The position numbers and the translations under genes were made by a program. A DNA stretch of 64,000 nucleotides from positions 3,772 to 67,771 of the forward strand of contig JBDKLC010000006.1 of the NCBI GenBank assembly GCA_039795775.1, in the 5' to 3' direction. Source of the DNA: Candidatus Parcubacteria bacterium (GTDB taxonomy: Bacteria > Patescibacteriota > Minisyncoccia > Phycocordibacterales > CAIZLB01). The notes beneath the pieces were generated by a model that saw only the letters and a list, made by a program, of their open reading frames with translations, was not told where the DNA came from and did no database searches. This document shows, one piece after another, positions 3,795 to 62,468 of the stretch; position 1 is the stretch's first letter, and each line of letters starts with the position of its first letter.

Positions 3795-5312
3795 TTATTC
3801 TGCCTTTTGTTTTTCTATAGCCTTATCCACTTCATCCAAATCACTCTCAATTGCCTCTTTAATTTCTTTTTCTTCCTTTGATAGAGTACGAGTATGTCGA
3901 GTACGTTGTAATATCTCGAGATGCTTTTCAAGTCGTTTTTTCAATGAGATAAGTACTTTTGTTGTATCTCCTTTCACCAACGCATTACGTGTTATAAATT
4001 TGTTTCGAAGCTTCGTATAGTGACGTCCGAGTTTGAATGCACCCAGTATCAATATTATAAGTCCACATACCGTTATGATCGCAAAGTAGATGGCAGGGAT
4101 ACTGAATGACCCAACAGTAATGAGTAGTGGTTGTTCAGATGAAGTAGTTGGCTGTACTGGTTCTGGCAAGCGATTCACCATAGGTGATACATTGAAAGTT
4201 CCGAGAGCATCGACACTATTACCAGCACGATCGAACGCGAGCAATTTTACGGTATTGTCACCAACAGTATTTACTTCAATACTGTACTTCCCGTTTACAA
4301 ATTCTGAAGAAGGAACCTGCTTCATCAATACATCATTGACGAATATTTCATAGTGATCCAATCCAGAAGTTTCGTCTACGATATCAGAGTCAATATTCAA
4401 CACTCTCTTTTGTTCATCATAAGAAAATGTGACGTCATTCTTTTGTGGAACAATACTATCTATTCGAGCAATGTATGTACTTGTTGGACCCCACACCCCA
4501 TCTTTACGTGCTCGAACTTTGAAATACCATGTTCCATCTTTCAAATCCTGAACTGATTTTTGATTTATAGCTGGACTATACGCTACTCGAGGTGACCCAG
4601 ACGTATTATTATCAATACCCGTTTGTACTGCGTCTACTCCTGTCGGTACTTTCCATCTAAACAAAGGATTGTTATCTTTGTACCATAATTCCTGAGAAGG
4701 ATGCGTTGGTGATGTAATTTGCAAAGATGCAGTTGAAAGAGCTGATGATGGAGCAGGAGTTGGTGCTGGAGTTGGAGTTGGAATAACAGGAACTGCAGGC
4801 TCCTCCTTCTTATCAATAGCTATTGTTTTACCTCTTTTACTTGTAAGAACGTCAGTACCTAGGCCGTCATTTGCTCGAATAGCTGCATCTGAAAAAATAA
4901 GATCAGCTTTACCTGGAGCCTTAGCTTTTACAACAATAGATAACGCTGTGCCGTTTGAACCTGTGAATCCAGGAGTTGGAACGCCCCCATTGAAGGTAAT
5001 AACGCCTGTTAAATTTGAATATGATGGTTCTTCTACCCACAAAGAAAATACCGAACTACCTTTGCTTACAGAAACTACTTCTAACAAATCTTTTGGGAAG
5101 ATGATTTTTGCTTCTGCGTTGTTTATTGCAACACCTTCTGAATTTATCACCACAGACAAAGTCATAATGCTTCCAGGTGACAATGTAGCAGCATTTGAAT
5201 TGATCTGCATTGTCGCAGCATCAGCACTACTGTATCCAAAACAGAATATAAGAACAGCGAGTAGAGTTATGAGATGTGCTATTTTATTTTTTATCATTTT
5301 TTTTAAGTCCAT
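3795..5312 (-). CDS. Membrane-anchored cohesin-domain protein with FN3/Ig-like middle region, Pro/Thr linker, C-terminal TM helix and coiled-coil tail
   Basis: An N-terminal signal peptide. The domain ATMQINSNAATLSPGSIMTLSVVINSEGVAINNAEAKIIFPKDLLEVVSV...ALSIVVKAKAPGKADLIFSD matches the type-I cohesin pattern (PGDTVRIPVRF...VLEIIEIEPG...ATIVAKVKEGAPNGLSVIKF). A PTPTPAPTPAP linker and a C-terminal hydrophobic helix LITVGSFSIPAIYFAIITVCGLIILILGAF are present. The start overlaps the upstream gene, consistent with translational coupling. Confidence 0.55.
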   Translation of the reverse strand: MDLKKMIKNKIAHLITLLAVLIFCFGYSSADAATMQINSNAATLSPGSIMTLSVVINSEGVAINNAEAKIIFPKDLLEVVSVSKGSSVFSLWVEEPSYSNLTGVITFNGGVPTPGFTGSNGTALSIVVKAKAPGKADLIFSDAAIRANDGLGTDVLTSKRGKTIAIDKKEEPAVPVIPTPTPAPTPAPSSALSTASLQITSPTHPSQELWYKDNNPLFRWKVPTGVDAVQTGIDNNTSGSPRVAYSPAINQKSVQDLKDGTWYFKVRARKDGVWGPTSTYIARIDSIVPQKNDVTFSYDEQKRVLNIDSDIVDETSGLDHYEIFVNDVLMKQVPSSEFVNGKYSIEVNTVGDNTVKLLAFDRAGNSVDALGTFNVSPMVNRLPEPVQPTTSSEQPLLITVGSFSIPAIYFAIITVCGLIILILGAFKLGRHYTKLRNKFITRNALVKGDTTKVLISLKKRLEKHLEILQRTRHTRTLSKEEKEIKEAIESDLDEVDKAIEKQKAE

Positions 5313-5913
5313 ACTTCAAAATAAGTGCGAGAAGAACAACGACTAATGAAATAATTATAGCATAATTATTTTTACTAGAATTAACTGGAACTGTATTTAT
5401 TTGCTTTTGTTGATTTTGTTTATCTTTGTCGATAGTAATATCGAGAGATTTTGAAGAAACAACTTCTTTTGTCCCTTTTCCATCGTTGAGATATGCGCTG
5501 CCATTTATATATGAAAGAGTAAGAGGGCCAGAAACCGTTGGAGAAAGACGAAGTCTAAAAAGGAGTCCTTCTTTGTCAAAACCTCCGGGCACTCCTCCCG
5601 CAAAACTAATAGATCTTTTTTCTGCATCGTACTGTGGAGGAGTTGGCCACATTGGCAAAACTGATTGGCCATTTTCTATCTGAACTGACACATTGTCTGA
5701 TGCTGCTCCGGAAAGTTGTATTTCACCATCAACAACGTTCAGTCTCTTTGATTGTGGGTCAATACGAATTTCAACAATTGTCGCTGGATCATTTGCATTT
5801 ACGTTTTGAACCTCATGAAAGGTTAACTCAGCAGCAATTATACTCTGTGGAATGCAGATAAAGCACAGTACTAAGATACCGCTAATAAAATAATTTGAAC
5901 GTACGTTGGACAT
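5284..5913 (-). CDS. Small membrane-anchored cohesin-like protein (signal peptide, beta-sandwich domain, C-terminal TM helix)
   Basis: Signal peptide, then SISFAGGVPGGF...LLFRLRLSPTVSGPLTLSYINGSAYLNDG. This resembles the paralog at 3795..5312 (ITFNGGVPTPGF) and cohesin C-terminal strands. A C-terminal TM segment AIIISLVVVLLALIL is present. The start lies 3 nt after the stop of the giant gene. Confidence 0.45.
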   Translation of the reverse strand: MSNVRSNYFISGILVLCFICIPQSIIAAELTFHEVQNVNANDPATIVEIRIDPQSKRLNVVDGEIQLSGAASDNVSVQIENGQSVLPMWPTPPQYDAEKRSISFAGGVPGGFDKEGLLFRLRLSPTVSGPLTLSYINGSAYLNDGKGTKEVVSSKSLDITIDKDKQNQQKQINTVPVNSSKNNYAIIISLVVVLLALILKYGLKKNDKK

Positions 5914-5915
5914 TG

Positions 5916-8900
5916 TTATTGTTTTTTAAATGCAATTGGAGTCTTCCCCCACTGGTAAAGCAAAATCGAGAAGTCTACTGAATCAACCTTTCCATCACGG
6001 TTTATATCAACACCCTGATTTTTGAATGGTGCAGAAGTTTTCCAGAATGCGAGCATTATAGAGAAATCAACTGAGTTTACCTTACAATCACCATTCAAGT
6101 CAGCTCCAGTAATCGCACATTTCATACCGGTTGGAATTGGTATTGATACTGGTGCTGGAGATGATCCGCCTCCTCCCCCGCCACCACTTCCTCCTGTGCC
6201 ACCTGTTGGTGGAGTAACTGGAGTAGTTGTAACAGCGGTGAATGATTGATTCGCTGAAGAAGAATCTGAACCGAAGAGTACCTTGAAGTGGAAGTAGTAA
6301 TTACCCGCAACAGGCACAGTTGAATTGAGTGTTGTATCGAAGTTTGCACCTGGCTGAATTAATTTTGCTGCTGTTGAACTAAAGATATCATCACCACCTC
6401 CACATTCATTTGATGAAGAATCAGTCACGCACCATGTATATTGATATTCATACGCAATAGAACCTTCGTTTGTTATTCGTACGTTTGTTGAAATTGTCGG
6501 AACAACAAGACTAGAGAAGCTCTGAATCAAAACTTGTGCAGGTGCACCTGGTGTGGCACTTACTATAGATGAAGCTGTACTTGTTCCAATAACATTCTTT
6601 GCACTAATTCTAAAGTCATATGAATTATCATTTGAGAGACTTGTGACTGTTGTTGCAGGAGTTGTTCCTACACCATCATTAAATACAGCCCATGTGCCTC
6701 CCGATGATAATTTGTATTCAATAACATAATCTGTAAGTGCTGAGCCTCCATTTGATATTGGTGCAGTCCACGAAAGATCTATACTGCTGTCTTGTACTGT
6801 TGCAGCAAGGTTTGTTGGTGCGCCTGGAATAGTCGCTGGTGTGACGCCACCACTTGAACCTGAAGACACACTTGTTCCAAGTGCATTTGTTGCTGTCACT
6901 GTGAATGTATATGTTACGCCATTTGTAAGACCATTCATGACAATTGAGTTTGTCGAACTTGTTGCTGTAAAGCCACCTGTGTTTGATGTCACTGTGTAGT
7001 ACTGAATCGCTGATCCATTTGAAGCTGGTACTGACCATGTCACACCGGCACTTTGATCACCAATTGTTGCGGCTACGTTTGTCGGCGCATCAGGTACAGT
7101 GGCTGGTGTTACTGAGTTTGAAACCACAGACGCTGTACTTGTACCAAGTGCGTTTGTTGCTGTCACTGTAAATGTATATGCCTGGCCATTTGTAAGACCA
7201 GTCACAGTTATTGGTGAACTTCCTCCTGATGCAGTGAAGCCACCAGTGTTTGAAGTCACGGTATATGAAGTGATCGCAGAACCTCCGTTTGAAACTGGTG
7301 GTGTAAATGTAATTGTTGCTTGGCCGTTTCCGCTCACGGCTGTGACACTTGTTGGCGCATCAGGCGCTGTAGCTGGTGTCACTGAGTTTGATGCCACAGA
7401 GGCTGTACTTGTTCCAAGTGCATTTGTTGCTGTTACTGTAAAGGTGTATGTTGTTCCATTACTAAGTCCACTTACAATCGCACTTGAAGTTGTTGTTGTA
7501 GCGATAAATCCACCAGTATTTGATGAAATAGTGTAAAGAGTGATCGCAGAACCTCCATTTGAAACTGGTGCTGTAAATGAAATTGTTGCTTGACCATTTC
7601 CTGAGACAGCTGTTACCGATGTTGGAGCATCAGGCACGGTGGCTGGTGTTACTGAGTTTGATGCCACTGAGGCACTACTTGTTCCCACAGCGTTTGTTGC
7701 AGTAACAGAGAAAATATATGCTGTACCATTTGAAAGTCCTGTAATTGTGATTGGAGAGTTACCACCAGACACACTAAAGTTTCCAATATTTGAATTCACT
7801 GTGTAGTACAAAATAGTTGATCCACCATTTGATACTGGTGGTGTAAATGTAATTGTTGCTTGGCCGTTTCCTGAGACAGCACTTACAGATGTTGGAGCAT
7901 CAGGCACTGTCGCTGGTGTCACAGAATTTGAAGTTCCAGATACTGTACTTGTTCCCACAGCGTTTGAAGCTGTCACAGTAAATGTATATGTTGTGCCATT
8001 ACTAAGTCCTGTAATAGTGATTGGTGAATTTCCACCTGTTGCAGTGAAGCCACCAGTGTTTGATGTCACTGTGTAATACGTAATTGCAGAACCTCCGTTT
8101 GAAACTGGAGCTGTAAATGAAATTGTTGCTTGGCCATTACCACTCACGGCTGTGACACTTGTTGGTGCATCAGGAACAGTGGCTGGTGTTACAGAATTTG
8201 AAGTTGCAGATGGTGTACTTGTTCCCACACTGTTTGTCGCTGTAACAGTGAATGTATATGTTGTTCCGTTTGTAAGACCTGTGATTGTGATTGGTGAACT
8301 TCCGCCTGTCGCTGTAAATCCTCCGACATTTGATGTCACAGTATATGAGGTAATCGCTGAACCTCCATTTGATACTGGTGCATTGAACGTGATAGTTGCC
8401 TCCCCATTTCCACGCACAGCTGTAACACTTGTTGGTGCGTCAGGAACTGTGGCTGGTGTTACTGAGTTTGAAGCCGTTGAACTCGCACTTGTTCCCACCG
8501 CATTATTTGCTGTGACAGTAAATGTGTATGTTGTTCCATTTGAAAGTCCTGTCACAACAATCGGTGATGAACCTCCTGTTGCGGTAAAGCCTCCAATATT
8601 TGATGTCACCGTGTATGAAGTGATCGCTGCGCCTCCATTTGAAACAGGAGCAGTGAATGAAATTGTTGCTTCGCCGTTGCCTCGTACTGCACTTACACCT
8701 GTTGGTGCACCTGCAACAGTTGCTGGTGTTACTGAGTTTGAAGTTGCAGATTGAGTACTTGTTCCGTATGCATTACTTGCTGTGACAGTGAATGTGTATG
8801 TTGTTCCGTTTGTAAGTCCAGTGATTGTGATTGGTGACGAACCGCCTGTTGCTGTAAAGCCACCTGTGTTTGAAGTCACTGTGTAATATGTAATGGCTGA

Positions 8901-11900
8901 ACCACCATTTGAAACAGGAGCAGTGAATGAAATTGTCGCTTCACCATTTCCTGAGACAGCACTTACGCCAGTTGGTGCACCTGGAGTAGTTACAGGCATA
9001 ACAGAATTTGATGCAATTGATGGAGAACTTGTTCCGACTGCATTTGTTGCTGTCACAGTAAAGTTATATGTTGTGCCGTTTGTTAGACCTGTTACAACCA
9101 CTGGTGATGCTCCGCTATGCACTACAAATCCTCCTGTGTTTGAAGATACTGTGTAATAAAGTACGGATGAGTATCCATCACTTGCTCCTGGTGTGAATGT
9201 TACTGTAGCTTCTCCATTCCCAGCTGTTGCAACACCAATAGTAGGTGCATCTGGAACAGTGGCTGGTGAAATTGAATTACTTGCAACTGATGCTGAGCTT
9301 GTACCCACAGCATTCGTTGCTGTCACTGTGAATGTATATGCCTGACCGTTTGTAAGACCAGTCACGATGAGTGGTGATGAAGTACCGGATGTTGTAAGTC
9401 CACCTGTATTTGAAGTAACTGTGTAGTACAAGATACTTGATCCGCCATTTGAAACAGGAGCAGTGAATGAAATTGTTGCTTGGCCATTTCCTCGAACAGC
9501 AGTGATGCTTGTTGGTGCATCAGGAACTGTCGCAGGAGTTACAGAATTTGAAGCTGTTGATGCAGTACTTGTTCCAACACCATTTGTTGCTGTCACTGTA
9601 AATGTGTATGCCTGACCATTTGTAAGACCTGTGATTGTACGTGGTGAACCATTACCTGAAGCTGTAAATCCTCCAGTGTTTGAACTTACTGTGTAATACG
9701 TAATCGCTGAACCTCCGTTTGAAACCGGTGGTGTAAATGTGATTGTGGCCTGACCATTTCCTGAAACAGCTGTGGCCCCAGTTGGAGCATCAGGAACAGT
9801 AGCTGGTGTCACAGAATTTGAAACTGAAGATGCAGTGCTTGTTCCTGCACTATTTGTCGCTGTTACAGTAAATGTATATACCTGACCGTTAGTGAGACCT
9901 GTCACAACAATCGGAGATGAACCTCCTGTTGCTGTAAAGCCTCCAGTGTTTGATGTCACTGTGTAATATGAAATTGATGCTCCTCCATTATCAACTGGTG
10001 GTGTAAATGTAATTGTCGCCTGGCCATTTCCTGCTACAGCGGTTACTCCTGTTGGTGCATTTGGCACTGTCGCTGGTGTTACAGAATTTGTTGTGGCAGA
10101 TGCAGTACTTGTTCCAGCCGCATTAGTTGCTTTCACTGTAAATGTATATGTCTGACCGTTTGTGAGACCTGTCACAACAATCGGTGATGATCCGCCTGTT
10201 GCTGTAAATCCTCCAGTGTTTGATGTCACTGTGTAGTACAAGATACTTGATCCACCGTTTGATACTGGTGGTGTAAATGTGATTGTGGCCTGACCATTTC
10301 CACCAGTTGCTGTTCCAATTGTTGGTGCATCAGGGATAGTCGCTGGAGTGACAGCATTACTTGTTGCAGAAGAAATACTTGTTCCGTTTGCATTTGTTGC
10401 TGTGACTGTGAATGTATATGTTGTGCCGTTTGTTAATCCTGTGATTGTAATTGGTGATCCTCCACTTGTTGCAGTAAAGCCACCAGGACTTGATGTAACT
10501 GTGTAAGATAAAATTTGTCCCCCTCCAGTGTTTGCTGGTGGAGTGAATGTGATTGTTGCTTGGCCATTTCCTGCTACAGCAACAATATTTGTTGGAGCAT
10601 CTGGTGCAACTTGATAATTAAAATATGGATATGTGACTGCCTCATCAATGTTCCAAATTGGAAGAGTTGTGAAATCCCAATTCGTAAATGTCGCCTGAGC
10701 TTCCATCTGTGTCGTTGTCTTTCCAGAAGTGTTTGTAGGAGTTGTCGCATTTCCTGCTCCATCTGTTTTTCCAGAAGTTGTAGTATCCCAATAACTTGAT
10801 GCCCATGTTCCACTTACTGGGTTACCTACAATTCCTCCTGCATATTGAAGTAACCCAGATGAACCTGTTGCACCTGTACTTCCATTACTTCCTCCTGTTC
10901 CACCAGTTCCTGCACTACCTCCGGCACCTCCGACTGCTCCAGAAGTTTTTGTTGCTGTCGGAACACCAGCTGAGTATGCATTAGTAACAAGAGAAGTTGC
11001 ATGACTTCCCAAAAGCCCTCCGACAAATGCACTAGCACCTGCACCTCCGATTGTTCCGTTTCCTCCGTTACCATTTGCTCCAGCAATTCCTCCTCCAGCT
11101 GCTCCGCCGTTTCCACCAGCGCCACCGGCCCCTCCAAATCCAGCAGACCCTGCTGTTGCAGTAACGTTACCAAGAGCATATGCGTTTGTAATTGTTCCAG
11201 TGTTATCTCCAACAAGTCCTCCTCCTGTCACAGCACCACCAGCGCCTCCAGTACCTCCAGATAAACCTGGTTGACCAGCACCACCGTTACCTGAACCACC
11301 AGATCCGCCCACACCTCCACTGCCTCCTTTTCCTCCAGTTCCTCCAGCAGCACCATTTCCTCCTGTCATTGTTACTGTTGTTGATGCATAGCTGTTACTA
11401 AAAGATCCAGTAGAAATGTTAGAACCAATAAGTCCTCCGGCAATACTTGCTCCACCAGTTCCTCCACCTGATCCTCCAGCGGCAGCTCCTCCGGCTCCTC
11501 CGGCAAGAGTTCCACCATTTCCTCCAGTTCCAGATGTACCTCGTACCCCTGCCGCTCCTCCGTTGCCTCCAACTGTTGTAACGGTGCCAGCTGTCCAAGA
11601 ATTTGATACAACTCCAGCCGTAAAGTTATAACCGATAAGACCTCCAGCATGTAATGCACCACCGTTTCCTGCATCTGCAGTTACACCTTGGTTACCACCT
11701 GCACCTCCAGCACCTGTTGCTCCACCAGTTCCTCCGTTACCTCCATTTCCTCCGTTTCCGCCCGCGCCTCCAGTAGCACCAGTAACTGAAACAGCACCAA
11801 CTGAGTAAACCGTTGAAATTGTACCGAGGTTATACCCTGTAAATCCACCACCGTATTTAACACCGCCAGCAGCACCAGTAGCACTTGCACCGGCATTAGC

Positions 11901-14900
11901 TCCAGCGCCTCCATTTCCTGCAAAAACACCGTTACCACCATTTCCTCCGTTACCAGCGATTCCACCGTTTCCTCCTGCTCCGCCAGAAAGTGTCAAACTT
12001 CCTGTTGAGTATGAATCTTTAACAATTCTTGTTGTTTCGTTTCTACCAATAAATCCTCCACCATACCCAATACCACCAGCACCTCCAGATGTTGCAGCTC
12101 CACCAAGACCACCGTTTGCTCCAGCGCCTCCTGATCCGACAGCACCGTTTGCACCGTTACCTCCTGTGCCTCCAGTACCTCCAGTTCCGGCAGTTCCAAC
12201 TACATTTGAAGTTGAATACGAGTTGAGCTGAACTGTTCCGTCATTTCTACCAATAAGTCCTCCAACATATAAAGTACCAGCAGCTCCTGCAGCACCAGCT
12301 GAACCACCCGCACCTCCAGTCGAAGCGATTCCTGCGGCCCCTCCATTTCCACCTGTTCCTCCTTGTCCACCGTTACCACTTGTTCCTGTTACAGTTGTAC
12401 CAACAGCATAACTTGTAGTAATCGTGTTTAAAGCGTTCACGTTGTACCCAATAAGACCACCAGCATAACTATCACCGCCAGCTCCGGCTGCACCACCAGT
12501 AGCTCCTGGCCCACCAATACCAGCACTCAAAGATGCATCAGCACCATTTCCACCTGTTCCTCCTTGTCCACCATTTCTTGCAAGTGATGTAACACTTCCT
12601 GTTGCATACGAATTCAAAATAACTCCGGTTGCAGCATTAATTCCAACAAGTCCTCCGGCATACGATGCTCCTCCGGCTCCAGTTGTTCCAACGGTTCCTC
12701 CCGCAGCACCTGTTGTTACTGTTCCACTCGTACTTGCTCCTCCGGCTCCACCAGTTCCTGCAGTACCAACATTTCCACTTGTTGATGTGACATTTCCTGT
12801 TGCATAAGAAACACTTTCAATAATTCCTCCACCAGCAAGAGCGGCTGTTCCATTTGTTCCAATAAGTCCACCGGCATATGCAGCACCTCCAGCTCCAGAT
12901 GCACCTCCGGCTCCACCAACACCTCCAATAGCTGCTGTTCCACCAGCGCCACCAATCACACCATTAGCACCATTTCCACTAGCACCTCCCACAGCATTTA
13001 CTGCACGTGTTGAATAACTTGTTGTAATTTGTAAGTTGTTACTTGCTGTTGCATTGGCTTGTCCAACAAGTCCTCCAGCATATGCTGCTCCTCCAGCAGC
13101 ACTCGCACCAGATGCACCTGTTGCTCCTCCCGCAGCGGCGACTGCTCCTCCTGCCGTTGATGTTCCTGCGCTTCCGCCATTTCCTGATGCACCACCAGTT
13201 GCAGTAACACTTCCTGTTGTTGAGTAATTATTCACATAATGAATAAATCCAGTTGTAACGCTTGTTAGTCCGACGAGTCCGCCAGCGTCAGCTTCACCTC
13301 CAATACCTGACGCTCCTCCAGCCCCGCCAGCACCACCGATTGTTCCTCCTGTTCCACCGTTTCCACCTAAGTTTCCAGTTGCACCAACACCACCTCGAGC
13401 ACTCACTAAACCTGTTGAATACGAACCCGTAATATCACTTTGTGCAGGCGTTGTCGTGATTCGGTGAATACCAATAAGTCCACCGGCATATGCAGCACCT
13501 CCAGCAGGTGGAGTAAGTACAGCTCCACCTCCCGCTCCTCCAGCAGCACCAGATGCTGACGCTCCACCATTTCCACCAGTTCCTTGAGTTCCTCCATTAC
13601 CTCCAGTTGAACTTGCGAATCCTGTTGCATAAACAGATATGTAATCAATTGAACCAGTTGTTAAGTTGCTGAATCCAACAAGTCCACCGGCATCAGCCTC
13701 ACCACCCACTCCGGCAACACCACCCAAACCTCCAGTTGCACCTGCGTGTGTAGAACTTCCCGTAGAACCATTTCCTCCAACACCTCCAGCACCACCGTTT
13801 CCACCAGTTCCACTTGTAACAGAAATATTTCCAGTAGCATAAGAATTGTTAATCTGCATCACTTGCGTTGTTCCTGTGATACGACCAACCAAGCCGCCAC
13901 CATATGTAGCAGCACCCGCGCCTCCAACCCCTCCAACCCCAGCAACAGCAGCGGTTCCACTTGACTGACCTGAACCTGATGTACCTCCTGTTCCTCCCGC
14001 GCCTCCATTTCCTCCGTTACCACCTGTTACAGAAATATGTACGGTTGAATATGAACCTCCTTGAATTGATCCTATTGTTGAAAGATAATCACCGACAAGC
14101 CCACCGAACGCACGGATACCTCCAGCACCTCCTGCGCCGCCAACAGCACCCACACCTCCGTTGTTTGCTCCAACACCGGCTCCACCGTTTCCTCCAGTAC
14201 CTCCGTTGCCTCCGTTTTGTTCAGTTCCTGAAATAGTTAACGTGTCAGCATATGAAGATGTGATAACTCCAGAACTAAATCCAATAAGTCCTCCAGCAAA
14301 AGCTCCAGATGATGCGCCTCCGACACCCGCAGTACCAAGACCTCCAGCTCCACCAACGCCGCCAGCTGCAAGTCCTGAACCTCCGTTTCCTGCATTTCCA
14401 CCATTTCCTGCTGATCCACCTGTAACTGTGATATTACCTTTTCCTGAGCCAGCATCGAAACTAGCGTAGGAAGAAATAACATCAGCTGTTGAATATCCAG
14501 CGAGACCTCCAGCATAAATAATTCCAGACGCACCTCCTGCGCCAGGTACACTTCCTGCAGCTCCAGTGTTTGCACCTGCAGAAATACCAGCAGATCCATT
14601 TACACCAGAACCACCTGTCACTATCAATGAAGTTTTTGAAAATGACGCAGCTTCAATAACACCGGTTGTATATCCAACAAGTCCTCCTGCATATACTGCA
14701 CCTCCGGCGCCTCCAGCTGCTCCCGCACCTCCAACACCATAAACTGCACTACCAGTTCCAATTCCACCTGTTCCTCCAAGAGCCGCAGCTCCACCATTTC
14801 CACCTGTTGCAGTTACCGTTCCTGTTTGTGCGTAACTTGTAGTAATAGTTCCCAAAATATTTTGACCAACAAGACCTCCGGCTTGCACTGATGCAGCAAG

Positions 14901-17900
14901 TGTAATAGCAGCTGCACCTCCAGCTCCTCCTGCACCTCCCGCACCTCCAATATGGTTTGTACCTAATGATCCATCACCACCTGCTCCACCAACGCCTCCA
15001 GCTCCTCCGTTACCACCGACAGCAGTCACGCTGGTTGTGGCGTACGAATTTGTAATACTTGCAGAAACAGCTGTAACACCATTTCTACCAACGAGTCCTC
15101 CAACAGAAACTGCACCACCAACACCTCCAGCTGCACCTGTACCTCCAGCTGCAGCAGTACCGTTTGTAATAGATCCCGAAGCACCTCCGGCTCCACCGGC
15201 ACCACCATTTCCTCCATTTCCACTTGTTGCAGTAACAGAACCACCAACATGATATGAGTTCAAAATTGCAGATGTGTTGTCACCAACCAATCCTCCGGTG
15301 AAGTTAACACCTCCAGCTGCGCCAATAGTTCCAGAGGTTCCAGCTGTACCAGCTACAGAAGAACCCCCAGCTCCTCCTGCACCTCCGGCACCTGAGTTTC
15401 CTCCGTTACCTGATGTTCCTTGTATAGTTCCTGATGAAAATGAATTAACAATATCACCTGAAGTTACTAAGCCAACCAACCCTCCAGTATATGACGCACC
15501 TCCAAGACCAGCTCCACCTCCAGCTCCTCCGGCACCTCCAACTTGTCCAGCTCCACCAGTTGCACCTGCTCCACCATTTCCGGCATTTCCTCCGTTACCT
15601 GCAACAACCGTAACATTTCCAGATGCTGTAGATGATGCAATTGCAACAAGTGTGTTTGTAAAACCAACAAGTCCTCCACCATATGCAAATCCTCCAGCAC
15701 CTCCAATACCACCGTTACCACCAGCTCCTCCGACAACAGCACTTATTGCAGCAGCACCCGCGCCTCCAACTTGTCCTGTTCCACCGTTACCACCATTAAC
15801 TGTGATATTCCCTGTAGCATATGAATTTACAATATTTTGTGCAGCACCAGAGTTGTAACCTTCAAGTCCTCCTGCATAAACAGCAAGACCGACAGCACCA
15901 CCTCCACCTCCAGCTCCTCCAGTACTTCCAGCTGCACCGTTTACACCTGCAACTCCTGCGCCTCCGGCTCCTCCATTTCCTGATGTTACTGTGACGTTGT
16001 TTGTTGAATAGACTGTATCGATAAGTACAGATACAAGTGAACTAAATCCAATTGCGCCGCCAGCATACACTGGACCAACAACACCGCCAGTTCCTCCTGC
16101 ACCTCCTACTCCATTTCTTCCACTTCCAGACCCACCAACTCCTCCCGCACCTCCGGTTGCTCCGACACCACCATTTCCTCCAACTGTAACAGTGATAGTG
16201 CCCCCAGTTGCACTAGATTTTTGAATATTACCGTTTCCTTGCCCAACAAGTCCTCCAATATATACTGCGCCTCCAGAAGATCCGGCGCCTCCCGCACCTC
16301 CAATTCCTCCCGCGTGACCTCCTGTGCCGAGAGATCCGTTGCCTCCAACTCCACCAACTCCACCATTTCCTCCATTTCTTCCAACAGCAGTTAGACTTCC
16401 AATAACTACTGAATCAACAATTACTCCTGAGTTATCACCCGCAAGTCCTCCTATATATGCAGCGCCACCGATACCACCAGCACCTCCGGCTCCGCCAGTT
16501 GCACCAGCACCAGCAGCAATATTTCCTGATGCTCCCGCATTTCCTCCAGTACCTCCAGTTCCAGGAACTCCACCCAACGCAGTAATAGATGTAATTGTAT
16601 AAGTCACATCATGAATTACTCCGGCATTAAATCCGAGTATTCCACCACTTGCAGCAAGTCCACCGTTTCCTCCAGCACCAGCTGCACCTCCAACACCTCC
16701 AATTGCGCCAGCTGTACTTCCGCCATTTCCTCCGTTACCTCCTGTAGCTCCGTTTCCACCAGCTCCTCCAAGAGAAGCTACTGTTCCTGTTGTATTTGGA
16801 ATTGAGATTGTTGTACCGAGTACAGTGTCGTTACCAATAACGCCTCCCGCATACGCTGCGCCTCCTGTAAAACCTGATCCACCTCCAACACCCGCAACTC
16901 CAACGACACCAGCGCCACTTGCTCCGCCATTTCCTCCGACACCACCGTTTCCTCCGGCGCCTCCATTTGCATACACACTTCCACTTGCATATGAATCAGA
17001 TGCAACTGATCCCGAGTTAAAACCAACGAGACCTCCTGCAGCTGCGACACCTCCAGAAACTCCGGCACTCCCTGCTACACCTGTACCTCCACTGAACGCA
17101 CCAGTCGAAGAACCTCCTGAACTACCTGCAAGACCATTTGCACCAGCACCTCCAGTCGATGTTGCGTTACCACTCGCGTATGACGCTCCTTGAATAATTC
17201 CGTTTGTAGAGTTGAATCCAATCAAACCACCTGCATATGCGACACCACCCACGTTTGTTCCTGCTGCACCAGCTGCACCTCCTGCTCCTCCAGCAGAAAA
17301 GCTACTTGCTCCACCGTTTCCTCCAGAACCGTTTGAACTTCCAGCGCCACCAGTTGCAATAGCATTTCCTGTTGCGTAAGAATTATTTATTACACCTGTA
17401 TTGATTCCCACAGCGCCTCCGGCATAACTCGCTGCACCAACAACACCAATACCACCAGTACCTCCAACTGCGCCTGTTCCTGCCGCACCACCATTTCCTC
17501 CAACACCTGAAGTTCCAGAAGTAGAACTCGCAAGTATAAATGAGTGAGAATTATTTATTGTTCCCGCAGAGTTAAAAGCAATTATTCCTCCGGCGTATCC
17601 AATGGCGCCAGCTCCACCTGCTCCACCAGTTCCACCGATTGCACCAAGCGCTCCTGTTCCAGCAGTTCCTCCAGCGCCTCCATTTACTCCGGCTCCTCCG
17701 TTACCTCCAATAACAGTTGCAGCTCCAGATTCAATATATGTATTTATAATAATTGCTGTGTTTAATCCTGCGATACCTCCGGCATATCCAACTGCACCCG
17801 CACCACCAGCACCTCCAGCGGCTCCTGCAGCACCAGTACTTGAAGATCCTCCTGTAGCATTACTTCCACCAAGCCCTGCTGCTCCTCCATTTGCTCCAGC

Positions 17901-20900
17901 AGAAGCTGTAGCAGAAATAATTCCACTTGCGTAAGAATTTTGAATTGTGTTTGTGTTGTTACCGACAATTCCTGCAGCATATGCAATTGCTCCTGCACCT
18001 CCGGCTCCACCGGCACCACCCACGGCTCCTGCACCAACAAATGTTCCTACTGATGCTCCACCGTTTCCACCAATTCCTCCAACCTGAGCAATTCCGGCAA
18101 CTGAAGTTATATTTCCAGTTGAATATGAAGAAGCTTGAATAACACCAGCACTCTGTCCAACAACACCACCTGCTGTTGAAACGGCGCCAGCACCGCCCGC
18201 ACCGGCTGTTGCACCAACACCTCCCGCAAAGTTTGTTCCACCAACACCACCATTTCCTCCGTTACCAGCAGTACCTCCATTACCAGCATCCACAATAATA
18301 TTGCCTGTATTGTAACTTGCAGAAACAGTTCCCAACACGATGTTACCTGCAACACCTCCACCAAAAGCAGCACCGCCAGTTCCTCCAGCAGCTCCTGCTC
18401 CACCTGCACCTCCAGTGTTTGAAGTTCCAGCACCACCATTTCCTCCGTTACCACCAGCTCCACCGTTTCCTCCATAAGCTGTGATAGTACCTGATGAATA
18501 TGAATTTGAAATTTCACCGTTGTTCAAAAAACCAACAACACCTCCAACATATGAAATACCTCCAGTTGATCCAACACTTCCAGCAACTCCTGCAACACCC
18601 GTAGTAAATGAATACCCATCACCACCACTTGCACCTGCACCTCCGGCACCAGATGTACCTGTTACGTCTCCTGTTGAATATGAATTTAAAATAGATGTTC
18701 CTGTATTGTGTCCAACCACACCACCGGCATAAACGATTCCTCCTCCGACAGCAGCTCCTGCTGCACCTCGTGTACCTCCAGTCCAAGCACCTCCAGCACC
18801 TCCCACTCCCGCAGCACCGCCCGCTCCTGCTGTTCCAGTGATTGCACCTGTTGTATGAGAACTATTAATTATAGAAAGAGTGCTGTTACCTGCAATTCCA
18901 CCAATATATAAAATACCTGCAGCCCCTCCGGTACCTCCAGCAAGTCCAGCGAGTCCTGTCTGTGCAGCGACTCCAGTTCCACCTGTTCCACCAGCACCGG
19001 CTTGGCCAGTCACAGCATTTGTAGACGAAGTATTTTGAATTACTCCCGTATTACTTCCAACAAGGCCTCCAGCATATGTAGCAACTACAGCAGCAGATCC
19101 TCCAGTTCCAGATGCACCTCCGGCACCAGATGTACCAGCTGAACCTTTTGCTCCTCCTGCTCCACCTATTCCACCAGTTCCTCCAGCACCACCAGTCACA
19201 GTAACAAGTCCAGTAGTTGAACTTGCAGAAGTAATTATTCCAGAATTTAATCCAACAAGTCCACCCGCATATGCTGCTCCTCCAGCTCCACCGTTTCCTG
19301 CGGCACCTCCAGCACCTCCAGTTCCAGAAGTTGTTAATGCAGCACTACCTCCTGCACCTCCGGCTGTTCCGTTTTTTCCAGCAGAACCTGTAGCAGTAAC
19401 AGCACCCGTTGCATAAACAGTAGATGATGCACCAGTAATAACTCCTGAAATACCATTTTGTCCAACCAATCCTCCGGCGTATGCAATTGCTCCAGCTCCA
19501 CCAGCACCTCCGGCTGCAGTTCCACTTGATGCTGCAACAGCTACTGAAGCTGCTGCTGATGCACCACTTGCGCTACCGGCTGAACCATTACCCGGTGTTC
19601 CACCAAATGCTTGCACAATACCTGTTGCATAACTTCCGTTCAGGATTGTGCCAGAGTTGTTTCCAGCAAGACCTCCGGCATACGCTGTTCCAGCTGCTCC
19701 ACCAGCAGCTCCTAATGCACCAAGCCCACCAATGTTTGCACCTCCGACACCAGTTCCAGCGTTACCTCCGTTACCAGCTGTTCCTGCATTTCCTCCCGCT
19801 CCACCTCTTGCTGTTACATTTCCAGTACTAAAAGAAGTTGAAACTGTTCCCGCTTGAATCCATCCGACAATTCCACCGACATATGCAATGTTACCCGCAC
19901 CGGCGCCTCCGGCTGCACCTCCGGCTCCACCGATACCAGTTCCAACTCCTGCAACAGAACCGTTTCCTCCATTTCCTGCGTTACCACTTGCACCTCCAGC
20001 TCCACCTGTTCCAACAACTGTTGCAGAACTTGTTGCAGTTGTAATACTTCCTTGTTGAGAATATCCGACAACACCTCCAACATATGCAAGACCTCCGGTT
20101 GCAGCAGCGTTGTTTGCCGCCGCTGCACCAGTTCCTCCTGTAGTTGCACCGGTTGTTGTGTTACCTCCGTTTCCACTATTTCCTCCGGCACCTCCTGATC
20201 CTCCTACACCGTTAATAGTTCCGGCAACACTTACATTTGTAATTGTTCCTGTGTTGTATCCAACCAAACCTCCCAAATACAAAGTTGCTCCAGCAGTACC
20301 GGCTCCACCAGCTGTACCACTTGTCGGTGTTGCACCATCTGATCCGTTTGTACCGGTTGTACCAACTGTGCCTGCAGTACTTGTGGCAGAAATAGAAACA
20401 CCAGAGAGAGTTACATCTTTAATAAGGTTTGTAGAATATCCAAAAAGACCGACATAACTCGACGTTGTTGTACTGATATACAAATTATTAATCGCAAAGT
20501 TGTTACCATCAAAAATACCTGCAAATGGAGTTGCGACGTTACCGATTGGATCAAACCCAACACCAGAACTCCAACCACTTGTAGTAGCGGCATCAATATT
20601 GTTATTGAGTTTAAATGAGCTCGACAAGTTTGTCTTCATTCCCTGCAAACCATACACATCAAAAACAATAAATGGATCTGAACTGATTCCAATTCCTGTA
20701 TATCGTCGGAATGTTCCAGCTGTGATAGAAAAACTTCCTGATACTGACAATGTGTTTGTTCCAGGATCAGTGGCAGTAAAAGTCGCCGCAGAAACTTGTG
20801 CATAGTTTCCAGATTGTCCTCCGGAATTTGTAATTGTAAGGTTAGCGTTTTGGAGAATAGTGCCTGTAAAACCATTAATAGTGAGAGAGCCTATAGTTCT

Positions 20901-29337: not shown

Positions 29338-31896
29338 CTAACTTAAGACGATACTCTTCATTATTTGAAGTATAACCGGCTTAAGGAGCTCGAAGTTTTC
29401 TATGTCGTTGTTATATTCAATATGGTATACCTGCTTCTTATACACGAATTCAGACACTTCTGACTTTTGAGTGATATATGTTAGACCGTTATCATAAGTC
29501 ACCAACTTTTTTGTCACATACACATTGGCAGTATTTCCAACAACGGGTCCTCTGTACTGTAAAATCACCTCTGTATCAGCGTCCTTTTTTTGCTTAAATT
29601 GTTCATCTAAGATTGATAAATTACCTCCTGATGAATCATTAAATATATGTATAAAAAGCGACGGAGTAAGATGCCTTTTTTCCTTTACTACAGGTGCAGC
29701 AATCAAAATAGCTTTAGAGTAAGCACTTTGAATATACGTACTAAGTTCCCAACCTGGAGGGTATACGAAACTAATCGGATGTACAGAATCTTTATACGAT
29801 TTTGGGTCTGATATTGTAACCTCAGTTGGTGTTTCATCTATTGTCTTAATTTCATTTGGTTTTGAAGAATAACTCAACTGATCAGTTATCACTCTCGATA
29901 GAATTGCAACAGTTATAAATATCCAATAGGCGTTTAATCCTATAAATCTTCCTGCTCCTTGATATACAAGACCAACTCCATAGTTACTTGCAGCAATTTT
30001 TGAAACATCGTCTTTTACTTTTTGAAGATCAGCTTCTTTGATAAATCGAGATTGCTTTGGGATAAATTCAGATACAACGTTTATAGTTCTGAACGAAGCT
30101 TTTTTTGTATTTTCAAATCGGAAATACTCGTTGTCTATCTTTGTATTTTTCAGCGTTTCTTTTTCGTTTCGTGCAATAAACAAATCTGATGTGATTTTGA
30201 GTGTTCGTCGAGCAGGAAATGCAAAGAAACTATCACATGGTGCGTCTTTAAAACTAAACTGTTTTATAGGATCAACATTTATTTGATAGTAAAACTTAAA
30301 TACTTTATATTTCGAAATAGTTTGGTATGGGCTTACAATCGATGTCTTGTATTCAACAACAAGTTCATTCTTTTTCTTATCATCAGATACAATAATGTAC
30401 GATGTATCTTTGAATAGTTGTTTTAAGTCTTTATCTTCTGTATATGACAATAAAGAAAATACTCTATTATTTTCATATTGAAGTAATTCTTCCTTACTAT
30501 TTCTTTTAAACTCGAGGCGTATTGCATCAGCAGACTCTCTACGATATGTAGAGACTGTATGTATTGTCCCCTCTGTCTTTTTTAGAACAATATCTGTATG
30601 TTGTTCTACATTTAACCCTGTTTCTTTTCTTTTATCCTTATACTTCAAATCAGAGTCTTTTTCTATAACAAGATAGTACGAGAAAAATGGTTCTGATCGA
30701 TATTCGAGCTGGCCATACTTTTCTGATTGTGTTGGATCAACAAAATAATATGATTCATTGTGTTTAATTCGCACAATAGCGTGATTGAATACAAATGGAG
30801 ATGGCAAACACAGAGACAAAAAGTAATCAGACTGATAATTTACCCAGACAATATCAGCATGTACACCTATAGACTTGAGCAAATCTACAAGGGCTTGAGA
30901 CGTAGCTTTGCAGTCTCCTGATTTATCTTGGATAGTTTTAGATGTCCGTTGAGGAATATGACGATGCATGACATACGCATCGTATAAATAGACAACATCA
31001 TTTTGTACAAACTCAATACATTTTTGAATTTTGTCATCTATAGATTCCTGAGGATTGCTCAAGTTGAGCATCGCGTACTCCTTTGTATCTACAAAATCAT
31101 CATTTACCCCATCTTTCTCGTGTAATTCATATACATCTCGAGCAATATCTTTCCATGTCGTTGTCGTTGAGATACTAATCCATGGCACATACTCATCTTT
31201 TTTGTATTCTACTTGAGTAGACTGAAGACTATACTCAAACGTGTTTCCTTTTTTTAGAAAAGTATGCGGCTCAGCAATGACAACTCCCTTTTCATCTCGA
31301 AAAAAGTTCTTTGCCACAGTGAGTTCCTCTTCTCGTTCGTTTGTACACGAGAAATAAAACTGCTTAAAATATCCAGCACCAGCTGGGAGGAACCTATTAT
31401 GATTGAAATACTTTTTATCTATATAATGGTCGTCAGTAAAATCGGTTGTAAGAGTAGACTCAACAACAATACTATCGTGTAGGCGAATATCATTTACAGT
31501 ACAGTGAACTTTCTTTGAGTTATGAATAGACCCAAATCGTGAATCTTTTTCATCATCAAAGACACGCACAACACAATCTTCTGATTTATCGATAATTTCA
31601 CCGTTTCGAACAACGAGAAGTTTGTGTATTTTTAAAGATTGGTTATCTAACAATACAAATTCTTGTATAGATTCTTGCTGTAAAATCTCTGGACTCGTAA
31701 GTCCTCGTATAGATACTGTATACGACTCGTTATTTTTATTTGTTGTCTTGATACATTCTTTATACATGTAGTACAAAGACTTACCTGCAAATTTAAGTTC
31801 CTTCGTTGCTTCTGTATCAACAACCAAATTTAAAATATCTTCATTCGATAATGCAAAGATACGAGACGATGCTTCAGAAAAAATATTGTGTTTCAT
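29338..31896 (-). CDS. Transglutaminase-like cysteine protease superfamily protein (DUF3857-type N-region)
   Basis: 852 aa. Core motif SGDCKATSQALVDLLKSIGVHADIVWVNY (the Cys nucleophile context G.C...A....LL...G), a downstream NHAIVRI (His), and FVDPTQ (Asp). Confidence 0.6.
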   Translation of the reverse strand: MKHNIFSEASSRIFALSNEDILNLVVDTEATKELKFAGKSLYYMYKECIKTTNKNNESYTVSIRGLTSPEILQQESIQEFVLLDNQSLKIHKLLVVRNGEIIDKSEDCVVRVFDDEKDSRFGSIHNSKKVHCTVNDIRLHDSIVVESTLTTDFTDDHYIDKKYFNHNRFLPAGAGYFKQFYFSCTNEREEELTVAKNFFRDEKGVVIAEPHTFLKKGNTFEYSLQSTQVEYKKDEYVPWISISTTTTWKDIARDVYELHEKDGVNDDFVDTKEYAMLNLSNPQESIDDKIQKCIEFVQNDVVYLYDAYVMHRHIPQRTSKTIQDKSGDCKATSQALVDLLKSIGVHADIVWVNYQSDYFLSLCLPSPFVFNHAIVRIKHNESYYFVDPTQSEKYGQLEYRSEPFFSYYLVIEKDSDLKYKDKRKETGLNVEQHTDIVLKKTEGTIHTVSTYRRESADAIRLEFKRNSKEELLQYENNRVFSLLSYTEDKDLKQLFKDTSYIIVSDDKKKNELVVEYKTSIVSPYQTISKYKVFKFYYQINVDPIKQFSFKDAPCDSFFAFPARRTLKITSDLFIARNEKETLKNTKIDNEYFRFENTKKASFRTINVVSEFIPKQSRFIKEADLQKVKDDVSKIAASNYGVGLVYQGAGRFIGLNAYWIFITVAILSRVITDQLSYSSKPNEIKTIDETPTEVTISDPKSYKDSVHPISFVYPPGWELSTYIQSAYSKAILIAAPVVKEKRHLTPSLFIHIFNDSSGGNLSILDEQFKQKKDADTEVILQYRGPVVGNTANVYVTKKLVTYDNGLTYITQKSEVSEFVYKKQVYHIEYNNDIENFELLKPVILQIMKSIVLS

Positions 31897-39996: not shown

Positions 39997-40073
39997 TGGC
40001 GCGGTGAATGGGACTTGAACCCACGACCTCTCCCGTGACAGGGGAGCGCTCTAACCAGCTGAGCTACCACCGC
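39997..40073 (-). tRNA. tRNA-Asp (anticodon GTC)
   Basis: Minus-strand GCGGTGGTAGCTCAGCTGGTTAGAGCGCTCCCCTGTCACGGGAGAGGTCGTGGGTTCAAGTCCCATTCACCGCGCCA. Anticodon loop CUGUCAC. CCA encoded. Confidence 0.8.
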
Positions 40074-40182
40074 ATGCGTTTATATCTCTATATACCAGAC
40101 AATACCCAAAAGGTATAGACTGTTTCGATATTATACATAAAATTCGGTATTTTCAAAGTATTCAAAGTAATAAAATGAAAAG

Positions 40183-62375: not shown

Positions 62376-62468
<93 letters not shown>

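What the first reader, a model, noticed from the sequence alone, without database searches (positions are those of the whole stretch)
10810..20460. About 50 GLUG-like glycine-rich repeats forming a roughly 3,200-aa low-complexity fibre
The core Y[AV]GG[LIV][VIA]G.N.G.I.NSY[AS]TG.V recurs about 50 times, each followed by GGAGGAGG/GNGGNGG tracts of variable length. This resembles the GLUG motif of IgA1-protease-like and large adhesin proteins, but the copy number is extreme. Variable Gly-linker lengths suggest ongoing expansion and contraction. The region is preceded by a W.GG.G.W....NW....P...D...F beta-helix-like segment. The fold (beta-helix, beta-roll or collagen-like) is not obvious.
Basis: seen in the sequence. 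Interest (0 to 1): 0.6.

Follow-up and report, generated by a model that had tools for sequence, protein, structure and literature searches.

The report
Fixed 49-unit GLUG/glycine-hairpin surface fibre
The repeats are real and lie inside one 5,419-residue secreted protein of a tiny "candidate phyla radiation" bacterium; they are not a shifting low-complexity tract but an old stalk of 49-50 units whose number and glycine-rich spacers are conserved across at least 16 related species.

Summary
Window 10752-20465 (minus strand) encodes 49 clear units plus one degenerate unit, spaced 65.5 ± 3.8 aa, inside one 5,419-aa ORF (5916-22175). The protein runs: signal peptide, N-terminal domain, repeat array, cap, 15 fn3 domains, type I dockerin.

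The GLUG link is supported: 33 of 49 isolated cores hit Pfam Glug, and the unit profile hits IgA1 protease in the PDB.

- About 50 copies is not extreme. Ordinary GLUG arrays reach 40-56 cores.
- The array is not expanding or contracting. Units share at most 68% DNA identity. In 16 orthologous Patescibacteria genomes the array has 48-49 units that align one to one. The Gly-rich spacers are as conserved as the cores.

What is unusual is the unit. A GLUG rung is followed by a 31-aa spacer made of two (GGX)n arms with strong period 3. AlphaFold2 models the spacer confidently as neither helix nor strand. The best PDB match is weak: polyproline-II-bundle antifreeze proteins.

Two membrane-anchored cohesin-fold proteins are encoded immediately downstream, and this gene order is conserved in the one relative checked.

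Best reading: a fixed-length surface stalk docked to the cell by dockerin-cohesin binding. It is a new variant of a known kind.

The parts
5916..22175 (-). Whole gene: 5,419-aa secreted giant protein
   Evidence: Single ORF. The same 5,419-aa gene is called on JGI contig Ga0451679_0000001.
22089..22175 (-). N-terminal signal peptide, aa 1-29 (RRKK, hydrophobic stretch, AFA/EE)
   Evidence: Read directly from the translation. No predictor was run. The hydrophobic stretch is long, so an uncleaved signal anchor is not excluded.
21081..21680 (-). Conserved N-terminal domain, about aa 166-365 (EIFKVGQE..KIKWQNN..HLSTQTF)
   Evidence: Shared with many Patescibacteria proteins, including ones that lack GLUG repeats. 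No Pfam family.
20466..21080 (-). Lead-in segment starting with the WVGGSGNW...NVFFD motif, about aa 366-570
   Evidence: Motif at aa 373. Aligns to the pre-GLUG part of a Planctomycetota GLUG-motif protein, P0031. Its fold was not modelled.
20289..20465 (-). Degenerate unit 0, aa 571-629 (YVGLFGYSTNLIKDV... plus a Gly/Thr-rich spacer)
   Evidence: Read from the translation. Falls below my HMM threshold.
10752..20288 (-). Array of 49 units, aa 630-3808. Each unit is a GLUG core of about 33 aa plus a spacer of about 31 aa made of two (GGX)n arms.
10617..10799 (-). Cap after the last unit, aa 3793-3853 (SSYWDTTTSG ... NWDF ... YPYF)
   Evidence: The YWD...SG motif was found by pattern in 13 of the 18 orthologous ORFs examined. 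In the 10 where both motifs were found, it lies 3,380-3,424 aa from the W motif. No Pfam hit.
6531..10616 (-). 15 fibronectin type III domains spaced 90 aa apart
   Evidence: Pfam fn3 E 5.8e-121, 15 stretches. Motif spacing of 90 aa. 270-nt DNA tandem repeat, 13.5 copies, 72% matches.
5961..6101 (-). C-terminal type I dockerin, two Ca-binding-type repeats (DLNGDCKVNSVDF / DINRDGKVDSVDF)
   Evidence: Pfam Dockerin_1 E 4.1e-9, 36.9 bits, cut-off 22.9.
5284..5913 (-). Downstream gene 1: 209 aa, with signal peptide, cohesin-like domain and C-terminal membrane anchor
   Evidence: Translation. hhalign to the cohesin-domain family of gene 2: probability 94.4%, E 9e-8.
3795..5312 (-). Downstream gene 2: 505 aa, with signal peptide, cohesin-fold domain, Pro/Thr linker, two beta-sandwich domains, TM helix and cytoplasmic helices
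   Evidence: AF2 model pLDDT 79.5. Foldseek: cohesin-fn3 module 2w1n E 3e-12; single cohesins 1g1k TM 0.74 and 2vn6_A TM 0.71. Pfam Cohesin in 8 of 30 family members. One homolog is named 'cohesin domain-containing protein' by NCBI.

Best explanation
The region encodes the stalk of a giant cell-surface fibre of a Patescibacteria (Paceibacteria/Parcubacteria-type CPR) bacterium.

Each of the 49-50 units has two parts. The first is a GLUG core that folds into short beta-strands, one rung of a beta-solenoid as in ordinary GLUG arrays. The second is a 31-aa insertion at the corner between rungs. The insertion has two (GGX)4-5 arms joined by a short variable turn. It most likely forms an antiparallel hairpin of polyglycine-II/polyproline-II helices that packs against the hairpins of neighbouring units.

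The number of units is fixed by selection, so the array acts as a rod of defined length rather than a variable tract.

The protein is exported by the Sec pathway. Its C-terminal dockerin binds the cohesin domains of the two membrane-anchored proteins encoded immediately downstream. The 15 fn3 domains and the 49-unit rod then hold the conserved N-terminal domain away from the cell, probably for contact with a host cell or a surface.

Shown here: the repeats, the GLUG relation, the period-3 spacers, the conservation of unit number and spacers, the dockerin, the cohesin fold of the neighbour, and the conserved gene order in one relative.

Inferred: the PGII hairpin geometry, rigidity, actual dockerin-cohesin binding, orientation, and an adhesive role.
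For: Anatomy of the gene.

GLUG relation of the cores.

The spacer is structured, not filler:
- Per-position Gly profile of GG-x triplets in two arms, positions 30-46 and 52-64.
- Period 3, z = 19 at lag 3.
- Spacer identity between orthologs is 57-83%, equal to that of the cores, against 45% between units of the same protein.
- The AF2 model of 4 units has pLDDT 86.3 and pTM 0.81. Spacers score about 90 and are assigned neither helix nor strand.
- The best PDB match is a nine-PPII-helix antifreeze bundle, 7jjv (E 3.2e-3, probability 0.69), with the snow flea AFP also listed.

Fixed length: W-motif-to-cap distance was measurable in 10 orthologs and is 3,380-3,424 aa (3,422 here); the unit count is 48-49 in all 16 orthologs. 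Cumulative register offsets never exceed 27 aa.

Old repeats: no DNA tandem array, at most 68% DNA identity between units, longest near-exact repeat about 32 nt.

Anchoring: dockerin; cohesin fold in the neighbour; second cohesin-like neighbour. The order giant gene, ~206-aa gene, ~571-aa cohesin gene is conserved in GCA_046350775.1. Homologs of the cohesin protein lie on the same contigs as other orthologs of the giant gene.
Against: No coordinates were available, so the PPII backbone geometry, the packing of the hairpins and the rise per unit were never measured.

All fold matches are weak: none reaches E <= 1e-3, and TM-scores are below 0.3.

The AF2 alignment had only 12 rows, all taken from the same protein.

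Dockerin-cohesin binding is inferred from domain types and gene order only. The window's own 505-aa protein scores below the Pfam cohesin cut-off (19.3 against 24.1 bits).

The N-terminal hydrophobic stretch might be an uncleaved anchor, which would change the topology.

One lineage (L003) carries 62 units through an old block duplication, so the length is not absolutely invariant.

Nothing here shows what the fibre binds.
Confidence: 0.6

Rival explanations
1. One reading: a hypervariable low-complexity tract whose Gly linkers and copy number are still expanding and contracting by slippage or recombination, as a contingency or antigenic-variation locus.
For: Short 18-nt GGXGGX micro-repeats occur in the DNA. 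Spacer lengths differ between units, 24-38 aa. One relative has a block duplication of about 13 units.
Against: There is no unit-length DNA tandem array. Units share at most 68% DNA identity and neighbours are barely more alike than distant units. There are 48-49 units in all 16 orthologs, with one-to-one register and the same position-specific spacer lengths. The block duplication in L003 is itself old, with copies 71-87% identical.
Confidence: 0.04
2. The Gly-rich spacers are flexible, elastomeric or disordered tethers (like GGX silk or elastin-type segments) between small beta nodes. The fibre would then be an extensible spring or brush, not a rod.
For: 47.5% Gly and almost no charged residues. 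No regular secondary structure was assigned. GGX motifs occur in elastic silks (my own knowledge, not tested here).
Against: The spacers are conserved position by position as strongly as the cores. Their lengths are conserved. AF2 confidence in the spacers is about 90. The strict two-arm triplet register fits a packed PGII hairpin better than a random coil.
Confidence: 0.15
3. A plain continuous beta-solenoid in which each 65-aa unit makes about three rungs. The Gly-rich part would supply two extra rungs and there would be no PGII helices.
For: 65 aa is about 3 x 22 aa. Beta-helix proteins (tailspikes, pectinases, the B. ovatus putative IgA1 protease 3n6z) appear among the weak fold matches.
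Against: The model has no strands in the spacers. The spacer periodicity is 3, not the 2 expected for strands. The best fold match is a PPII bundle.
Confidence: 0.12
4. The flat Gly-rich faces bind ice or another crystalline or polymeric surface, as in springtail antifreeze proteins. The fibre would be an ice- or mineral-binding adhesin.
For: The best structural match is a springtail antifreeze PPII bundle. The outward X residues are A, N, T and V.
Against: The match is weak (E 3e-3, TM 0.28). Going only by the labels in the record titles (pond, groundwater, Lake Baikal), the orthologs do not look specific to cold habitats. No functional data exist.
Confidence: 0.03
5. Assembly artefact: a collapsed or inflated repeat.
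For: A second assembly (Logan contig L002) breaks inside this gene, within its C-terminal 468 aa, outside the GLUG array. Many database homologs are truncated at contig ends.
Against: The longest near-exact DNA repeat in the array is about 32 nt. More than 16 independent assemblies give the same 48-49-unit array in an open frame.
Confidence: 0.02

Closest known systems
Canonical GLUG-motif arrays (Pfam PF07581), as in streptococcal IgA1 protease/Zmp N-terminal regions and many giant 'GLUG motif-containing' surface proteins
   Same: The core sequence GGLVG.N.G.I..SY.TG.V matches the Pfam model and IgA1 protease in the PDB. Tandem arrays of tens of copies occur in very large secreted proteins. 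A W..GG.G.W lead-in is shared with a Planctomycetota GLUG protein.
   Different: Canonical arrays have a 27-28-aa period with no spacer. All 150 top-scoring representatives are of that kind. Here every core is followed by a conserved 31-aa (GGX)n hairpin-like insertion, giving a 65-aa period. No peptidase domain is present.
Polyglycine-II / polyproline-II helix bundles: snow flea and springtail antifreeze proteins (2pne, 3bog, 7jjv), and the PGII-sandwich model of mycobacterial PE_PGRS domains (PMC9436101)
   Same: Gly-rich triplet repeats with Gly in two of three positions, in arms of 4-5 triplets. [quoted passage not shown] Period 3 is strong. The segments are confidently modelled with neither helix nor strand. 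The best PDB fold match is 7jjv.
   Different: Here the Gly arms are short hairpins inserted regularly into a beta-solenoid repeat, not a free-standing bundle or sail. No sequence-family link to PGRS was detected. The fold match is weak. PGRS domains are polymorphic and tolerate large indels, whereas this array is length-conserved.
Cohesin-dockerin anchoring, as in cellulosomes and other surface assemblies of Firmicutes
   Same: A type I dockerin at the C-terminus. A cohesin-fold domain on adjacent membrane-anchored proteins.
   Different: The cargo is a structural fibre, not an enzyme. The host is a CPR bacterium. The cohesins are very divergent in sequence, below the Pfam cut-off in this genome. 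Binding is untested.
Giant repeat adhesins with extender regions (e.g. Salmonella SiiE, Marinomonas ice-binding adhesin MpIBP); comparison from my own knowledge
   Same: Multi-thousand-residue secreted proteins in which tens of tandem repeats project a terminal binding module from the cell. SiiE fragments appear among the fold matches of the neighbouring anchor protein's Ig-like domains.
   Different: Those extenders are Ig-like domains exported by type I secretion in diderm bacteria. Here the extender is a GLUG/Gly-hairpin solenoid plus fn3 domains, with a Sec signal and dockerin anchoring.

Membership tests
GLUG motif (Pfam PF07581) | Sequence match to the Pfam Glug HMM at or above the gathering score (20.5 bits) | tested here: met
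   The first unit scores 29.3 bits alone and 24.8 bits within a 900-aa piece. 33 of 49 isolated cores match at E <= 1, best 6.8e-7. The 1,000-aa pieces of the middle of the array gave no hit at E <= 0.01; I suspect, but did not test, that composition correction for the Gly-rich spacers is the reason.
GLUG motif (Pfam PF07581) | Head-to-tail arrays with a period of about 27-28 aa (one rung per motif, no spacer) | tested here: not met
   The period here is 65.5 ± 3.8 aa. The 150 best representatives have median periods of 26-39 aa, mostly 27-28, and no Gly-rich spacers.
GLUG motif (Pfam PF07581) | Beta-solenoid fold of the motif | tested here: inconclusive
   AF2 places 4 short strands in each core. 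Beta-helix proteins and 3n6z are only weak fold matches (E > 0.6). No coordinates were available to inspect.
PGII/PPII helix bundle (springtail antifreeze proteins, PE_PGRS model) | Gly-rich triplet repeat with period 3 | tested here: met
   P(non-Gly at i+3 | non-Gly at i) is 0.746 against 0.526 in shuffles, z = 19. The signal persists at lags 6 and 9. The per-position profile shows GGx triplets.
PGII/PPII helix bundle (springtail antifreeze proteins, PE_PGRS model) | Left-handed PPII backbone and side-by-side antiparallel packing of the helices | not testable with these tools
PE_PGRS family (Mycobacterium) | N-terminal PE domain and homology of the PGRS region | tested here: not met
   No PE or PGRS-related Pfam hit anywhere in the protein. 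The organism is a Patescibacterium.
Collagen-like triple helix | Long uninterrupted G-X-Y runs, usually Pro-rich | tested here: not met
   Gly runs are 13-17 residues long and are interrupted every 65 aa by a beta core. There are only 12 Pro in 3,179 residues. The Pfam Collagen model scores only E 0.24 in the one piece scanned at a relaxed threshold (aa 170-634), with the match at aa 602-629 in the Gly/Thr-rich spacer that precedes the first full unit.
RTX beta-roll | GGXGXD nonapeptides with Ca-binding Asp | tested here: not met
   Asp is 0.9% of the array. The periodicity is 3, not 9 with a conserved Asp. An RTX structure appears only at E 5.9.
Cohesin-dockerin system | Type I dockerin (duplicated Ca-binding segment) on the cargo protein | tested here: met
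   Pfam Dockerin_1, 36.9 bits against a cut-off of 22.9.
Cohesin-dockerin system | Cohesin domain on a scaffold or anchor protein | tested here: met
   Foldseek of the AF2 model: 2w1n E 3e-12; 1g1k TM 0.74, rmsd 3.6 Å; 2vn6_A TM 0.71. Pfam Cohesin in 8 of 30 homologs. By sequence, the window protein itself is below the cut-off.
Cohesin-dockerin system | Specific Ca-dependent binding between the two modules | not testable with these tools
   Only adjacency and conserved gene order are shown.

The most novel reading that the evidence does not exclude
The unit may be a composite fold not yet described. It would be a beta-solenoid spine in which every rung carries a polyglycine-II hairpin. The 49 hairpins would stack into one continuous PGII sheet or 'fin' along the rod. 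The strictly conserved count of 49 would make the rod a molecular ruler that sets the distance between a CPR episymbiont and whatever its tip domain contacts.
Probability: 0.3. Interest if true: 0.75.

Novelty: new variant of a known kind. Interest (0 to 1): 0.55.

Why it matters
Patescibacteria are ultra-small bacteria, mostly uncultured and thought to live attached to other cells. Almost nothing is known about their surface structures. This gene takes up about 16 kb of a very small genome, and its architecture is conserved in about 30 species-level genomes, so it is probably important to their way of life.

Structurally, polyglycine-II elements are rare and have been solved only in a few small proteins. 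A regular GLUG-plus-PGII repeat would be a new way to build a long rod and a useful test case for structure prediction.

A strictly conserved number of diverged repeats is also uncommon in giant adhesins. It points to selection on physical length.

The dockerin-cohesin pairing suggests that this anchoring system is used outside cellulosomes to mount fibres on CPR cells.

Tried and rejected
1. A word-indexed homolog search with a 6-unit query gave only 4 short hits, which I attribute to the Gly-rich content of the query.

2. An alignment of overlapping 6-unit windows (A2) was unusable, because MAFFT aligned the identical overlaps out of register. It was replaced by 12 non-overlapping 4-unit blocks (A4).

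4. PDB sequence searches with the 505-aa neighbour, alone and as a profile, found no cohesin. The fold comparison did.

5. An exact look-up showed the giant protein is not in the 15-billion-protein collection. Neither it nor its full-length orthologs appear in the representative search, although the giant would score 1,171 bits with the same profile. The absence of the Gly-spacer architecture from the top 150 therefore cannot be read as rarity in nature.

6. Collagen, RTX beta-roll and PE_PGRS membership were considered and rejected (see the membership tests).

7. The plus-strand ORFs inside the region (for example 15274-15858) were treated as by-products of the biased composition and not pursued.

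8. Literature searches for the GLUG motif, and for Patescibacteria with cohesin and dockerin, found nothing describing this protein.

Full report
**What is there.** The flagged region lies wholly inside one minus-strand ORF, window 5916-22175, encoding 5,419 aa. The strongly negative GC skew of the plus strand across 10-20 kb reflects the many GGN glycine codons on the coding strand. One more degenerate copy sits at aa 571-629. The start-to-start spacing is 65.5 ± 3.8 aa, range 56-74. Cores are 32-40 aa. Spacers are 24-38 aa (mean 31), 47.5% Gly and 21% Ala.

**Layout of the protein**:
- a signal peptide;
- a Ser/Thr-rich stretch;
- a conserved N-terminal domain;
- a lead-in beginning with WVGGSGNW...NVFFD at aa 373;
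- the array;
- a cap (SSYWDTTTSG...NWDF...YPYF);
- 15 fn3 domains spaced 90 aa apart;
- a small unassigned domain;
- a Gly/Ser linker;
- a type I dockerin (36.9 bits, cut-off 22.9).

The array has only 62 charged residues in 3,179, no Cys and 12 Pro.

**Are the cores GLUG?** Yes. Scanned in 1,000-aa pieces, only the first part of the array hit Pfam Glug. I suspect, but did not test, that the Gly-rich spacers trigger composition correction. When the 49 cores were scanned alone, 33 matched PF07581, best E 6.8e-7, and the first core scored 29.3 bits against a cut-off of 20.5. A profile of the whole unit hits the S. pneumoniae IgA1 protease chains in the PDB (E 0.0075). A Planctomycetota 'GLUG motif-containing protein' (P0031) aligns to the lead-in. 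It shows the ordinary layout, with cores every 28-29 aa and no spacer.

**Is about 50 copies extreme?** No. The unit profile matched 20,903 of 1.84 billion representative proteins at E <= 1e-3. Dozens of giant proteins in the top 150 have 40-56 cores by my HMM, and up to 82 matched stretches by the tool's count. All 150 have median periods of 26-39 aa, mostly 27-28, and none has Gly-rich spacers. One caveat applies. The library does not contain this protein, and it did not return any of its full-length orthologs, although the giant would score 1,171 bits. The unusual unit cannot be called rare in nature on this evidence.

**The spacer.** The spacer is what differs from ordinary GLUG arrays. 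Aligned over 48 units it has a clear position-specific profile. Positions 30-46 read GG-x five to six times, with x mostly N, A or T. Positions 47-51 are a variable turn where the indels lie. Positions 52-64 read GG-A four times. Non-Gly residues recur at lag 3 with probability 0.746, against 0.526 in shuffles (z = 19), and again at lags 6 and 9.

AlphaFold2 on four units, using 12 non-overlapping four-unit blocks of the same protein as the alignment, gave pLDDT 86.3 and pTM 0.81. Each core has four short strands. The spacers have confidence around 90 but are assigned neither helix nor strand. Foldseek against the PDB found nothing at E <= 1e-3. The best match was the nine-polyproline-II-helix springtail antifreeze protein 7jjv (E 3.2e-3, probability 0.69). 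The snow flea antifreeze protein and various beta-helix enzymes and tailspikes rank lower. The viral library gave nothing.

Two arms of 4-5 Gly triplets are close to the 3-4 triplets per helix described for PGII sandwiches in PE_PGRS models (PMC9436101). I therefore read the spacer as an antiparallel PGII hairpin inserted at the corner between successive GLUG rungs. This step is inferred. I had no coordinates and could not measure dihedrals, packing or rise per unit.

**Is the array in flux?** No.
- Tandem Repeats Finder sees no unit-length DNA array here, only 18-nt GGXGGX micro-repeats. It readily detects the 270-nt fn3 array.
- Units share on average 57% DNA identity and at most 68%. At protein level they share 45% on average. 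Neighbours are only marginally more alike than distant units.
- The longest near-exact DNA repeat is about 32 nt.

A scan of one genome per species with the N-terminal domain found 79 loci. Nearly all record titles name Patescibacteria lineages or unclassified bacteria; two short contigs carry other labels. Thirty of the 31 best loci carry the same 65-aa-period array. The more distant loci share only part of the N-terminal domain and have no GLUG cores.

In the 16 orthologs with enough flanking sequence and an uninterrupted frame, the inferred unit number is 48-49. In the 10 of them where both motifs were found, the distance from the W motif to the cap is 3,380-3,424 aa (3,422 here). In nearly all, the shortest period is also 56 aa. 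Global alignments of eight of them put every unit opposite its counterpart, with cumulative offsets never above 27 aa. Core identity is 54-83% and spacer identity 57-83%. The spacers are thus as constrained as the cores, and orthologous units are far more alike than paralogous ones.

One exception was found. A frameshift-ridden contig of GCA_037975565.1 carries about 62 units, which are the same series with units ~11-23 duplicated as a block. The two copies are 71-87% identical in DNA, so the event is real but old. Misassembly of the window is very unlikely.

**Context and anchoring.** The window is chromosomal DNA, with scattered tRNAs and housekeeping genes. The 505-aa neighbour is 100% identical to a protein of a 'Candidatus Parcubacteria bacterium' MAG.

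Two genes lie immediately downstream on the same strand, with overlapping or abutting ends. One encodes 209 aa and the other 505 aa. Each has a signal peptide, a related beta domain and a C-terminal membrane anchor. The 505-aa protein has only a sub-threshold Pfam Cohesin hit, but 8 of 30 homologs hit Cohesin. One homolog is named a cohesin-domain protein by NCBI. The AF2 model (pLDDT 79.5) matches a cohesin-fn3 module (2w1n, E 3e-12) and single cohesins (1g1k, TM 0.74, rmsd 3.6 Å; 2vn6_A, TM 0.71).

The order giant gene, ~206-aa gene, ~571-aa cohesin gene recurs in GCA_046350775.1, whose giant is only 59% identical in the N-terminal domain. Other cohesin homologs lie on contigs that also carry giant orthologs.

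**How it most likely works.** The protein is exported by Sec. Its C-terminal dockerin binds the cohesin of one or both membrane-anchored neighbours. The 15 fn3 domains and the 49-50-unit GLUG/Gly-hairpin rod form a stalk of fixed length. The conserved N-terminal domain also occurs on other Patescibacteria surface proteins with different stalks. It sits at the far end, where it could contact a host cell or substrate.

The steps shown are the domain identities, the conservation and the gene order. Binding, orientation, rigidity and an adhesive role are inferred. I put about 0.6 on this overall picture. I am more confident that the array is a structured, length-conserved extracellular element. 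I am less confident about the PGII geometry and the adhesive role.

**Comparison and novelty.** The cores belong to the GLUG family by sequence, but the array fails the family's usual 27-28-aa head-to-tail layout. The spacers behave like PGII/PPII bundle elements in sequence pattern, but membership of that structural class could not be tested. Collagen, RTX and PE_PGRS membership are rejected. The anchoring resembles cellulosomal cohesin-dockerin pairs, but with a structural fibre as cargo. I class this as a new variant of a known kind, of moderate interest. It would be more interesting if the composite solenoid-plus-PGII fold and the ruler function were confirmed.

Noticed in passing
window 62642-62731 (+), next to 62376-62467 (+): ARAGORN reports a tRNA-Ser with anticodon ACT beside a tRNA-Ser(GCT). 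Rfam confirms a tRNA at that position (56 bits). An A at position 34 outside tRNA-Arg is unusual in bacteria.
   Followed up: no
window ~40000-44000: A GC-rich island (0.49 against about 0.39 elsewhere) is bounded by tRNA-Asp and two tRNA-Met genes. It holds a 395-aa secreted protein with no Pfam hit. It also holds a plus-strand 379-aa ORF, one of very few plus-strand ORFs in a mostly minus-strand window, that looks by eye like a glutathionylspermidine-synthase-type ATP-grasp enzyme. It may be acquired DNA.
   Followed up: partly
window 6531-10616 (-): The 15 fn3 domains sit at 90-aa spacing and still form a detectable 270-nt DNA tandem array (72% matches). The fn3 part is therefore younger or more homogenised than the GLUG array in the same gene. 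The second assembly (L002) breaks within the C-terminal 468 aa of this gene.
   Followed up: partly
L003 (GCA_037975565.1, JBBCBH010003404.1) 4982-17100: The orthologous gene is broken into dozens of small ORFs by frameshifts and has about 62 units. The cause is an old block duplication of units ~11-23, with copies 71-87% identical in DNA. Whether the frameshifts are sequencing errors or pseudogenisation is unknown.
   Followed up: partly
window 21081-21680 (-) and loci L035-L082: The N-terminal domain (EIFKVGQE..KIKWQNN..HLSTQTF) is a module found in about 50 further Patescibacteria loci that lack GLUG repeats. Some carry other C-terminal domains, for example P0018 with PF09603. It has no Pfam family and its function is unknown.
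   Followed up: partly
window 29338-31896 (-): An 852-aa protein has only a weak transglutaminase-core hit (E 2.7e-4, below the cut-off).
   Followed up: no
protein libraries (not a window feature): The giant protein is absent from the 15-billion-protein collection by exact look-up. Neither it nor its full-length orthologs are returned by the representative search. Giant biased-composition ORFs of this family seem to be missing from those libraries.
   Followed up: partly
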